From positions 28,896 to 92,895 of the IMG/VR virus record IMGVR_UViG_3300022188_000229: 64,000 nt of DNA; one strand, given 5' to 3'. The first letter of the stretch is position 1. The number at the start of each line of letters is the position of its first letter. The position numbers and the translations under genes are program-made. This DNA is from a virus. Below the pieces are notes generated by a model. The model ran no database searches and was not told the DNA's origin. It was given only the letters and a program-made list of their open reading frames with translations. Of the stretch, positions 46,658 to 46,733 are shown one piece after another.

Positions 46658-46733
46658 TGGAGGCCCCACCCGGGATCGAACCGAGGATAGGTGGGTTTAG
46701 AATCCACCGCTGTGCCAACTTAGCTATAGGGCC
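46658..46733 (-). tRNA. Amber suppressor tRNA (anticodon CUA)
   Basis: GGCCCTA-TA-GCTAAGTTGGCACAGC-G-GTGGA-TTCTAAA-CCCAC-CTATC-CTCGG-TTCGATC-CCGGG-TGGGGCC-T-CCA; 76 nt with encoded CCA. Confidence 0.9.

What the first reader, a model, noticed from the sequence alone, without database searches (positions are those of the whole stretch)
46658..46733. Amber suppressor tRNA with a chimeric identity
Seen: the acceptor end GGC/GCC-U73 and 3-bp D stem are tRNA-Cys-like. The anticodon arm (TGGA-TTCTAAA-CCCA) differs by one base from this phage's tRNA-Trp (TGGA-TTCCAAA-CCCA). Normal tRNA-Cys and tRNA-Trp genes are both present, so this is an extra gene. It is not tRNA-Pyl-shaped. The amino acid it carries cannot be determined from sequence; Cys, Gln and Trp are all plausible.
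Basis: partly seen in the sequence, partly recalled or inferred. Interest (0 to 1): 0.7.

Follow-up and report, generated by a model that had tools for sequence, protein, structure and literature searches.

The report
Phage amber-suppressor tRNA gating its own operon
This is a real stop-codon-reading (UAG) tRNA of a giant phage, and it is the last part of a small operon, conserved in many large phages, whose leader peptide and tRNA-hydrolase-like gene contain UAG codons that only this tRNA can read, so the phage seems to sense and use its own stop-codon readthrough.

Summary
In detail: window 46658-46733 (minus strand) is an intact 76-nt class-I tRNA with anticodon CUA. The 'chimeric Cys/Trp identity' reading is not supported. 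The discriminator base differs among close orthologs (U, A, A, G, C). The odd A31.C39 anticodon arm is typical of these suppressors, not of tRNA-Trp. The closest ortholog's body matches tRNA-Gln best. The inserted amino acid remains undetermined.

The context explains the tRNA. It lies 6 nt after a 92-codon Pth2-fold gene with one in-frame TAG. That TAG is conserved in five relatives, with purifying selection downstream of it. Across 114 related loci, 21 copies of this gene carry an internal TAG, one carries TAA and none TGA. Where a suppressor tRNA is seen, TAG goes with anticodon CUA and TAA with UUA. In 68 of 80 phage loci a tRNA(CUA) follows the gene (median gap 12 nt). An unknown 'gene A' precedes it, and in four loci the two are fused. 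A leader ORF reaches an RGPP arrest motif only through two UAGs, and its Pro codons pair with gene A's ribosome-binding site.

The contig otherwise uses the standard code. This scan has noted the same module on other DNA before. I found no published description.

The parts
46658..46733 (-). tRNA(CUA), amber suppressor; CCA encoded; U73; A31.C39 mismatch
   Evidence: ARAGORN; Rfam tRNA 51.2 bits; structure; orthologs show compensatory changes at 4-69, 50-64 and 51-63
46740..47018 (-). Pth2-fold gene, 92 codons, ending 6 nt before the tRNA; one in-frame TAG at codon 36
   Evidence: Pfam PTH2 23.4 bits over residues 2-61 and phrog_1866 E 1e-9 over residues 2-80, both spanning the TAG; AF2 pLDDT 97.3; Foldseek top hits are all Pth2 structures, TM 0.66-0.78
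46911..46913 (-). In-frame amber codon (TAG) of the Pth2-like gene
   Evidence: Present at the same codon in L085-L089 (75-90% identity); L090 has TAA at this column with a tRNA(UUA) downstream; synonymous >= nonsynonymous differences downstream of it
46990..47289 (-). Gene A, 99 aa, helical, unknown function; overlaps the Pth2-like start by 29 nt
   Evidence: Conserved directly upstream of the Pth2-like gene in about 48 loci and fused to it in L056, L060, L071 and L080; no Pfam or PHROG match; AF2 pLDDT 93; no convincing PDB match
47314..47451 (-). Leader ORF with in-frame TAGs starting at 47379, 47361 and 47340; RGPP arrest motif at 47355-47344, reached only after the first two TAGs
   Evidence: Translation; TAG-gated R[AG]PP in 26 of 99 upstream regions against 0 of 373 controls; broader pattern in 50 of 99 against 4 of 369
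47297..47349 (-). Hairpin pairing the Pro-Pro codons CCUCCU and their flank with the Shine-Dalgarno AGGAG of gene A
   Evidence: Minimum-free-energy and centroid fold; same pairing with covarying flanks in 16 of 17 loci, p<=0.05 against within-locus windows

Best explanation
The gene encodes a functional amber-suppressor tRNA. It is the 3' member of a conserved phage operon: leader ORF, gene A, Pth2-like gene, tRNA(CUA).

Shown by comparison: the tRNA fold is under selection; a suppressor tRNA follows the Pth2-like gene in most related phages; the in-frame stop in that gene matches the anticodon of the neighbouring tRNA; and the coding sequence after the stop is under purifying selection. The tRNA therefore reads UAG in its own operon.

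Inferred: when the tRNA is made and charged, ribosomes read through the two UAGs of the leader, reach RGPP and arrest on the CCU-CCU codons. That opens the hairpin hiding gene A's ribosome-binding site. Gene A and the overlapping Pth2-like gene are then translated, and the latter needs a further UAG readthrough. The operon's protein output thus reports suppressor activity.

Speculative: gene A and the Pth2-like protein act together on the ester bond of aminoacyl- or peptidyl-tRNA(CUA), which would hold suppression at a tolerable level in a phage that still ends a fifth of its genes with TAG.

The inserted amino acid is unknown. My rough odds are Gln 40%, Lys 15%, Trp 10%, Cys 10%, other 25%.
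For: tRNA; compensatory stem changes in orthologs.

Upstream gene: homology and fold span the TAG. The TAG is conserved in L085-L089. For codons 37-92, synonymous to nonsynonymous differences are for example 12:4 and 24:10.

Module: 68 of 80 IMG/VR loci have a same-strand tRNA(CUA) downstream, median gap 12 nt, and it is often the only tRNA in 12 kb.

Internal stops in the Pth2-like gene over 114 loci: 21 TAG, 1 TAA, 0 TGA. 18 of the 21 TAG loci show a tRNA(CUA) on the fetched DNA. The TAA locus has a tRNA(UUA) 2 nt downstream. No mismatched pairing was seen.

Gene A: conserved, overlapping and sometimes fused.

Leader. Anti-SD hairpin. RAPP and RGPP are experimentally established arrest motifs (PMC10951233, PMC7897499, PMC12992588).

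Standard code elsewhere: 91% coding, TAG ends 30 of 143 ORFs, no gain from reading TAG as sense. No other gene has homology spanning a TAG.
Against: Nothing here is experimental: expression, charging and readthrough are all inferred.

TAG ends about 21% of this phage's genes, so an efficient suppressor should be costly. Their in-frame extensions are not significantly shorter than those of other genes (median 4 against 9 codons, p=0.34).

Only about a fifth of the Pth2-like genes carry an internal stop, and about half of the loci show a gated leader, so gating is not universal.

The leader region as a whole does not fold better than shuffled sequence (z -0.79).

By alignment the family has Gln where archaeal Pth2 has a Lys that I recall as catalytic, so hydrolase activity is uncertain.

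Gene A has no recognisable function.

Two thirds of the genome are missing (CheckV 34%).

The loci were chosen by homology to one gene and are not independent samples.
Confidence: 0.65

Rival explanations
1. It is an ordinary code-15 suppressor. The phage reads TAG as an amino acid in many (late) genes that lie on the unsequenced two thirds of the genome, and the TAGs in this operon are just part of that recoding.
For: Phage tRNA(CUA) genes are linked with TAG recoding (10.1101/2021.08.26.457843; PMC13037316; PMC9523058). The contig is only about 34% complete. Lak megaphages, which are recoded, carry a homolog of the Pth2-like gene.
Against: TAG ends 30 of 143 ORFs here. The standard code gives 91% coding. 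Reading TAG as sense gains no more open frame than reading TGA as sense. The tail sheath and virion structural genes on the contig are intact in the standard code. None of the 81 module neighbourhoods shows a recoding signal. No other gene has homology across a TAG.
Confidence: 0.1
2. It is a chimeric Cys/Trp-type suppressor: a tRNA built from a Cys-like acceptor end and a Trp anticodon arm, charged with Cys or Trp.
For: G1-C72, G2-C71, C3-G70, U73 and a 3-bp D stem. The anticodon arm is identical to this phage's tRNA-Trp except at position 35. Trp is the nearest tRNA within the phage.
Against: The discriminator varies among orthologs and across the family. The tRNA is far from the phage's own tRNA-Cys. 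It has G15:C48, not G15:G48. The A31.C39 arm is typical of suppressors, and other phage tRNA-Trp genes lack it. tRNA-Trp here has G73, not U73.
Confidence: 0.1
3. It is an anti-defence spare part: one of the phage's many tRNAs kept to survive host tRNA-cleaving or tRNA-depleting defences, with the CUA anticodon incidental or an escape change. The nearby TAGs would have no regulatory meaning.
For: It lies in a region with 19 tRNA genes and an RtcB tRNA ligase (48943-50109) and an RNase T-like exonuclease.
Against: In many related loci the tRNA(CUA) is the only tRNA within 12 kb, yet it still abuts the Pth2-like gene. This rival does not explain why the type of internal stop matches the anticodon, why the TAG is conserved, or the TAG-gated leaders.
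Confidence: 0.07
4. It is decay: the TAG is a nonsense lesion in a dying gene, and the tRNA is a mutated ordinary tRNA with no function.
For: A single in-frame stop in a short gene is the usual mark of a pseudogene. TAG is one mutation away from several sense codons.
Against: The same TAG is kept in five relatives that differ at up to 25% of residues. Purifying selection acts downstream of it. The tRNA stems show compensatory changes. Internal stops across 114 loci are 21 TAG, 1 TAA and 0 TGA, each matching the neighbouring anticodon.
Confidence: 0.03

Closest known systems
Suppressor tRNA(CUA) of stop-codon-recoded ('code 15', TAG=Gln) phages such as Lak megaphages and crAss-like phages
   Same: A phage-encoded class-I tRNA with anticodon CUA that reads UAG while the host uses the standard code. 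It probably relies on a host synthetase.
   Different: Here TAG remains a common terminator (21% of ORFs). The only homology-supported internal TAGs lie in the tRNA's own operon. The tRNA is physically coupled to a Pth2-like gene, which is not described in those studies (no 'hydrolase' in 10.1101/2021.08.26.457843 or PMC13037316).
RAPP/RGPP regulatory arrest peptides (ApdA, ApdP, ApcA; functionally like SecM)
   Same: A short upstream ORF ends in an R-[AG]-P-P motif, and a ribosome stalled there would melt a hairpin that hides the downstream gene's Shine-Dalgarno sequence.
   Different: The known examples monitor protein export or membrane insertion. Here the arrest motif lies behind UAG codons, so the signal would be stop-codon readthrough by the operon's own tRNA. 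Arrest was not tested.
prfB (RF2) autoregulation through an in-frame UGA
   Same: An in-frame stop codon inside a translation-factor gene makes its synthesis depend on the balance between termination and an alternative decoding event (from my own knowledge of prfB).
   Different: prfB uses a +1 frameshift and senses RF2. Here a dedicated suppressor tRNA reads the stop in frame, and the gene product is a Pth2-fold protein, not a release factor.
Laboratory amber suppressors such as E. coli supE (tRNA-Gln CUA) and su+7 (tRNA-Trp CUA, charged with Gln), and T4 psu tRNAs
   Same: The anticodon is one base away from that of a sense tRNA. CUA anticodons tend to attract GlnRS or LysRS (from my own knowledge of the Normanly, Kleina, Abelson and Miller suppressor series).
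   Different: Those are mutants selected in the laboratory. This is a natural gene conserved across many phages, with its own cis-linked targets.
tRNA-Pyl
   Same: Anticodon CUA; ARAGORN gives it that label.
   Different: It has a canonical cloverleaf with G18G19, a T loop UUCGAUC, two bases between the acceptor and D stems, and a 5-nt variable loop. No PylS is found.
Archaeal/eukaryotic peptidyl-tRNA hydrolase 2 (Pth2; PDB 2zv3, 1q7s, 1xty)
   Same: The upstream gene has the same fold (TM 0.66-0.78) and the motifs R-x-D-L and Q-x-x-H-A.
   Different: It is shorter (92 against about 115 residues). It sits only at Pfam's threshold. It has Gln where Pth2 has a conserved Lys, and Glu-Pro-Asp where Pth2 has Asp-Ala-Gly. 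It is coupled or fused to an unknown helical protein.

Membership tests
Canonical elongator tRNA (Rfam RF00005) | Cloverleaf scoring above the family's gathering score, with G18G19 and a T loop | tested here: met
   51.2 bits against 29, model positions 1-71; ARAGORN structure
Amber suppressor tRNA | Anticodon CUA at positions 34-36, flanked by U33 and a purine at 37 | tested here: met
   Loop UUCUAAA; all 65 distinct suppressors of the module have A37
Amber suppressor tRNA | Reads UAG as sense in vivo | not testable with these tools
   Indirect support only: a conserved in-frame TAG with purifying selection downstream of it, and stop type matching the neighbouring anticodon
tRNA-Pyl | Compact shape: one base between the acceptor and D stems, small D loop without G18G19, 6-bp anticodon stem, 3-nt variable loop | tested here: not met
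   U8 and A9 present, G18G19 present, anticodon stem of 4-5 bp, 5-nt variable loop
tRNA-Pyl | PylS synthetase encoded alongside | tested here: not met
   No TIGR02367 match in the 92.9 kb contig; the contig is incomplete
tRNA-Cys identity (E. coli rules, from my own knowledge) | U73 | tested here: met
   U73 in the window, but A, A, G and C in orthologs
tRNA-Cys identity (E. coli rules, from my own knowledge) | GCA anticodon and a G15:G48 tertiary pair | tested here: not met
   Anticodon CUA; G15:C48; similarity score of 2 to this phage's own tRNA-Cys
tRNA-Trp identity (bacterial rules, from my own knowledge) | G73 and CCA anticodon | tested here: not met
   U73 and CUA. Only the anticodon arm matches the phage's tRNA-Trp, and that arm is typical of suppressors
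tRNA-Gln identity (E. coli rules, from my own knowledge) | U35, weak 1-72 pair, G73, Gln-type D arm | tested here: inconclusive
   U35 present, but G1-C72 and U73. Ortholog L085 matches annotated E. coli tRNA-Gln best (87% over nt 6-62). The window's own tRNA gives no BLAST hit.
Code-15 (TAG-recoded) phage | Many genes with in-frame TAG, low coding density in the standard code, TAG rare as a terminator | tested here: not met
   91% coding; TAG ends 30 of 143 ORFs; no gain from reading TAG as sense. This holds for the 34% of the genome in hand.
PTH2 family (PF01981), upstream gene | Profile match over the domain and the Pth2 fold | tested here: met
   23.4 bits against a cut-off of 23; PDB profile hits E 4e-5; Foldseek top hits are all Pth2
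PTH2 family (PF01981), upstream gene | Catalytic residues and hydrolase activity | tested here: inconclusive
   By alignment the family has Gln16 where M. jannaschii Pth2 has Lys, and Glu67 where it has Asp. Activity was not tested.
RAPP/RGPP arrest-peptide leaders | Short upstream ORF with R-[AG]-P-P near its end, placed so that a stalled ribosome frees the downstream Shine-Dalgarno sequence | tested here: met
   Motif at 47355-47344, 67 nt before gene A's start codon; hairpin; conserved in 16 of 17 loci
RAPP/RGPP arrest-peptide leaders | Ribosome arrest shown experimentally | not testable with these tools
   Needs toeprinting or reporter assays

The most novel reading that the evidence does not exclude
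The tRNA is both the signal and a product of a self-contained stop-codon-readthrough homeostat. A leader arrest peptide hidden behind UAG codons measures how well the phage's own suppressor competes with release factor 1. It then switches on a gene A/Pth2-like complex that acts specifically on the suppressor tRNA, by deacylation or peptidyl-tRNA hydrolysis. This would let a standard-code giant phage run a controlled, low level of UAG readthrough. It would be a regulatory circuit of a kind not yet described, present in hundreds of large phages, with an ochre (UAA/tRNA-UUA) version as well.
Probability: 0.3. Interest if true: 0.9.

Novelty: new variant of a known kind. Interest (0 to 1): 0.75.

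Why it matters
Amber-suppressor tRNAs are often seen in large standard-code phages, but their targets have been a puzzle. The XacN1 authors, for example, could not find any (PMC5852040).

This result gives such a tRNA concrete, conserved targets: UAG codons in its own operon's leader and in a Pth2-fold gene, with the stop type matching the anticodon. If the inferred switch works, it joins three things that have been studied separately: suppressor tRNAs, ribosome-arrest leaders and peptidyl-tRNA hydrolases.

It would also show how phages might tolerate, tune or pass through the ambiguous stage that is thought to precede full stop-codon reassignment. And it would offer a compact natural part for controlling readthrough.

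A practical point also follows. Gene callers that read TAG as Gln have put 'Q' at these codons in protein databases, and that can be mistaken for evidence about the inserted amino acid.

Tried and rejected
1. Gln from homologs. The six closest database homologs show Q at the TAG column. I rejected this as evidence because their DNA counterparts (L085-L089) carry TAG there, so the Q comes from the gene caller.

2. Residues at stop columns. The nearest stop-free homologs show K, Q, V, S, E, N, I and F, with no consistent residue.

3. Isotype by nearest neighbour. With anticodons masked, against 217 ordinary phage tRNAs, the method is only 66% accurate on controls. It scatters the suppressors over 11 isotypes with small margins. 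The first run was contaminated by a mis-registered suppressor that ARAGORN called Arg(tct) in L088.

4. BLAST searches that found nothing: the window region and the tRNA against the phage collection, the tRNA against E. coli genomes, and an exact tRNA pattern in IMG/VR.

5. Other amber-containing genes. Four same-frame gene pairs read through their TAG gave family matches on one side only.

6. tblastn with the leader peptide found nothing. The peptide is too short, and a motif scan was needed.

7. Gene A function. No Pfam or PHROG match. Foldseek found no PDB match, VIA-align gave Z below 7, and the Atlas gave only generic helical matches. The N-terminus of XacN1 ORF364 is not gene A-like.

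8. Buffering of TAG-terminated genes by nearby second stops: not significant.

9. The 4-bp anticodon stem literature (PMC13092985) concerns the 27-43 pair, not 31-39, so it does not apply directly.

The DNA of the ENA/Logan homologs could not be fetched that way.

Full report
THE OBSERVATION.
ARAGORN finds 19 tRNA genes in the window, all on the minus strand between 43.3 and 64 kb. One of them lies at 46658-46733 and has anticodon CUA. Rfam's tRNA model scores it 51.2 bits against a gathering score of 29, E 1.8e-8. Read in its own orientation it has these features:
- a 7-bp acceptor stem beginning G1-C72, G2-C71, C3-G70;
- discriminator U73 and an encoded CCA;
- a 3-bp D stem with A13.C22, plus G18G19 and G15:C48;
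- an anticodon arm GUGGA-UUCUAAA-CCCAC, in which A31 faces C39;
- a 5-nt variable loop and a normal T arm.
The anticodon arm equals that of this phage's tRNA-Trp(CCA) except at position 35. tRNA-Cys, tRNA-Trp and tRNA-Gln genes are also present. The tRNA does not have a tRNA-Pyl shape, and no PylS is encoded on the contig.

THE GENOME.
The window is bases 28896-92895 of a 92,895-nt IMG/VR virus record that CheckV rates 34% complete. The phage is therefore probably a jumbo phage of roughly 270 kb. The contig carries DNA polymerase, ribonucleotide reductase, a tail sheath, virion structural proteins and an RtcB tRNA ligase.

Under the standard code a greedy ORF set covers 91% of the contig. Of 143 ORFs, 96 end in TAA, 30 in TAG and 17 in TGA. 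Reading TAG as sense gains no more long open frame than reading TGA as sense. Four same-frame gene pairs separated by a TAG show family matches on one side only. The part of the genome in hand therefore uses TAG as a normal terminator.

THE UPSTREAM GENE.
An unchecked first-reader note on this window pointed to a Pth2-like gene with an internal TAG next to the tRNA. I tested this. A 92-codon frame at 46740-47018 (minus strand) has a good ribosome-binding site and one TAG at codon 36 (46913-46911). It stops 6 nt before the tRNA.
- Pfam PTH2 matches residues 2-61 (23.4 bits, cut-off 23), and phrog_1866 matches residues 2-80 (E 1e-9). Both span the TAG.
- AlphaFold2 with 44 sequences gives mean pLDDT 97.3.
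- The top Foldseek hits are all Pth2 structures: 2zv3, 1q7s, 1wn2, 3erj and 1xty, TM 0.66-0.78.
- A family profile finds PDB Pth2 chains at E 4e-5.
By that alignment the family has a nearly invariant Gln where M. jannaschii Pth2 has Lys, and Glu-Pro-Asp where it has Asp-Ala-Gly. Catalysis is therefore uncertain.

A CORRECTION.
The six closest database homologs have Q at the TAG column, and I first read this as evidence for glutamine. The metagenome scan then gave the DNA of five close relatives, L085-L089, 75-90% identical in protein. All five carry TAG at that codon (GAT ACT TAG TGG), with synonymous changes around it. The database 'Q' is therefore the choice of a gene caller, not evidence.

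What the relatives do show is that the amber codon is conserved. The 56 codons after it are under purifying selection: synonymous codon differences equal or exceed nonsynonymous ones in every pair, for example 12:4 and 24:10.

THE MODULE IS WIDESPREAD AND THE STOP TYPE MATCHES THE ANTICODON.
A pattern search with the family alignment found more than 331 loci in IMG/VR, and the best 80 were kept. In 68 of those 80, a tRNA(CUA) lies downstream on the same strand. The median gap is 12 nt and 36 lie within 20 nt. It is often the only tRNA in 12 kb.

Over these 80 loci, 33 metagenome loci and the window (114 in all), 22 Pth2-like genes carry an in-frame stop: 21 TAG, one TAA, none TGA.
- 18 of the 21 TAG loci show a tRNA(CUA) on the fetched DNA. 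This count includes L088 and L112, where ARAGORN slipped register on a CUCUAAA-type loop.
- The single TAA case, L090, has its TAA at the very column where the window has TAG, and it is followed 2 nt later by a tRNA(UUA).
- The internal stops sit at variable surface positions: five different columns around residues 33-36, plus residues 46, 59, 62 and 64-69.
- TAG is rare as the gene's own terminator (4 of 81).
- None of the 81 neighbourhoods shows a general TAG-recoding signal.
The loci are not independent, and some are duplicates. There are about 20 distinct stop-bearing sequences.

THE tRNA FAMILY AND THE 'CHIMERIC IDENTITY'.
The orthologs behind L085-L089 keep CUA and show compensatory changes: C4-G69 to U-A, U50.G64 to U-A, and C51-G63 to G-C. 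Their discriminators, however, are A, A, G and C, against U in the window. Across 65 distinct suppressors of the module the discriminator is A in 28, U in 19, G in 14 and C in 4. Acceptor stems are unrelated. Only the Y-U-C-U-A-A-A loop and the class-I shape are shared. U73 is therefore not a conserved identity mark.

The A31.C39 mismatch occurs in 13 of 81 suppressors but only 2 of 285 ordinary tRNAs from the same loci. Any unpaired 31.39 occurs in 23 of 81 against 5 of 285. It goes with U32. The seven other phage tRNA-Trp genes have CUCCAAA loops with a paired 31-39. The shared arm is thus a trait of the suppressors that this phage's tRNA-Trp happens to carry, not a sign of Trp ancestry.

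L085's tRNA matches annotated E. coli tRNA-Gln best (87% over nt 6-62, in more than 5,400 genomes). The window's own copy gives no hit. A nearest-neighbour isotype test was too weak to use (66% accuracy on controls) and scattered the suppressors. Residues at the stop columns in the nearest stop-free homologs are inconsistent.

The amino acid therefore stays open. Gln is the single most likely, on three grounds: the L085 match; the known pull of U35 in CUA anticodons on GlnRS (my own knowledge); and the TAG=Gln precedent in phages (PMC9523058).

TWO MORE CONSERVED PARTS.
Gene A (46990-47289, 99 aa) lies directly upstream of the Pth2-like gene in about 48 loci. It usually overlaps the Pth2-like start by the same 29 nt. 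In L056, L060, L071 and L080 the two are fused into one ORF. Gene A has no Pfam or PHROG match. Its confident helical model (pLDDT 93) has no convincing structural neighbour.

Upstream of gene A is a 45-codon leader ORF (47451-47314) with the design W-TAG-VGSFP-TAG-V-RGPP-S-TAG. Earlier notes of this scan on other genomes reported TAG-gated RGPP leaders, so I tested the idea on my own loci.
- R[AG]PP lies behind in-frame TAG(s) in 26 of 99 distinct upstream regions, against 0 of 373 control windows.
- A broader pattern (TAG, up to 12 codons, Pro-Pro, then a stop within two codons) occurs in 50 of 99 regions against 4 of 369 controls.
- The close relatives keep the design: L085 has FP-TAG-VRGPPC-TAG, L088 has FP-TAG-TRGPP-stop, and L087 has the variant FP-TAG-SYKPP-stop.

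In the predicted fold, the CCUCCU Pro codons and their 3' flank pair with the AGGAG Shine-Dalgarno of gene A and its 5' flank. The same pairing, with covarying flanks, beats within-locus random windows in 16 of 17 loci. RAPP and RGPP are established arrest motifs (PMC10951233, PMC7897499, PMC12992588).

No promoter-like or terminator-like site separates these parts beyond chance. That is consistent with a single transcript, but it is weak evidence.

HOW IT MOST LIKELY WORKS.
Shown by comparison: the tRNA is functional, and it reads the in-frame stop codons of its own operon.

Inferred: readthrough of the leader UAGs brings ribosomes to RGPP, where they arrest and expose gene A's ribosome-binding site. 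Gene A and the overlapping Pth2-like gene are then made, and the latter needs one more readthrough. Operon output would thus rise with suppressor activity.

Speculative: the gene A/Pth2-like pair acts on the suppressor's aminoacyl or peptidyl ester and closes a negative feedback loop. That could explain how a phage with 30 TAG terminators in 93 kb tolerates a suppressor.

Against a strong suppressor: those terminators are not significantly backed up by nearby stops (median extension 4 against 9 codons, p=0.34).

DISTRIBUTION AND LITERATURE.
In one genome per prokaryotic species, the family turned up only 7 times. All are metagenome bins, several on contigs of 130-430 kb, and 4 have a tRNA(CUA) nearby.

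Among deposited phages, Lak megaphages have the gene with a tRNA(UUA) about 590 nt upstream. Xanthomonas and Stenotrophomonas jumbo phages carry the domain as the C-terminus of a longer protein with no adjacent tRNA.

The XacN1 paper reports two tRNA(CUA) genes whose targets could not be found (PMC5852040). Four full-text searches and readings of the recoding survey and a 2026 jumbo-phage survey found no description of the module.

This scan itself has noted it repeatedly on other DNA. Those notes are unchecked AI notes. I used them as leads and tested the leader claim independently.

VERDICT.
It is best understood not as a chimera of Cys and Trp features, but as the suppressor component of a conserved, apparently unpublished phage operon that is gated by readthrough of stop codons. 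Nothing is experimental, and two thirds of the genome are unseen.

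Noticed in passing
window 63058-63134 (-): This phage's tRNA-Trp(CCA) has the suppressor-type anticodon arm (U32, A31.C39). It is one of only 2 of 285 ordinary tRNAs with this mismatch, and seven other phage tRNA-Trp genes have normal arms. Whether this changes its decoding (for example near-cognate reading of UGA or UAG) is unknown.
   Followed up: partly
L090:253-624; L107:6001-6373; L084 (Lak-B4) 1841-2791; L077-L079, L081: An ochre version of the module exists. L090 has TAA inside the Pth2-like gene and a tRNA(UUA) 2 nt downstream. L107 has a tRNA(UUA) 9 nt downstream with no internal stop. Lak-type loci have a tRNA(UUA) 0.6-1 kb upstream of the gene.
   Followed up: partly
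L088:4275-4351: The ortholog of the suppressor in this close relative seems to have a 9-nt anticodon loop (CACUCUAAA). ARAGORN mis-registers it as Arg(tct). L089's ortholog lacks an encoded CCA.
   Followed up: no
L060, L068, L099, L101: Some loci carry two tRNA(CUA) genes in tandem after the Pth2-like gene.
   Followed up: no
proteins P0001-P0006: Public protein collections hold these genes translated with TAG as Q, so a 'Q' at the amber column is the gene caller's choice. This is a trap for anyone inferring the inserted residue from database homologs.
   Followed up: yes
window 48943-50109 (-), 45340-45978 (-), 44462-44992 (-): An RtcB tRNA ligase (phrog_1075, E 2e-119), an RNase T-like exonuclease and an HNH endonuclease lie among the tRNA genes. 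This suggests a tRNA repair or maintenance region.
   Followed up: no
window 47448-48152 (-): A phage-encoded PAS-HisKA protein (234 aa) with no ATPase domain lies just upstream of the leader; its stop overlaps the leader's ATG. It has no counterpart next to the module in any related locus.
   Followed up: partly
window 59670-59749 (-): A weak Rfam tRNA match (30.3 bits, just above the gathering score) that ARAGORN does not call. It may be a degenerate or interrupted tRNA.
   Followed up: no
window 46221-46657 and 50217-51150: Two stretches without credible ORFs on either strand: 437 nt just downstream of the suppressor, and about 0.9 kb after tRNA-Ser(UGA). Rfam finds nothing there at gathering thresholds.
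   Followed up: no
L082 (XacN1 ORF364), L083 (RAS14): In cultured Xanthomonas and Stenotrophomonas jumbo phages the Pth2-like domain is the C-terminal third of a 260-280 aa protein. Its N-terminal part is not gene A-like, and no tRNA is adjacent.
   Followed up: partly
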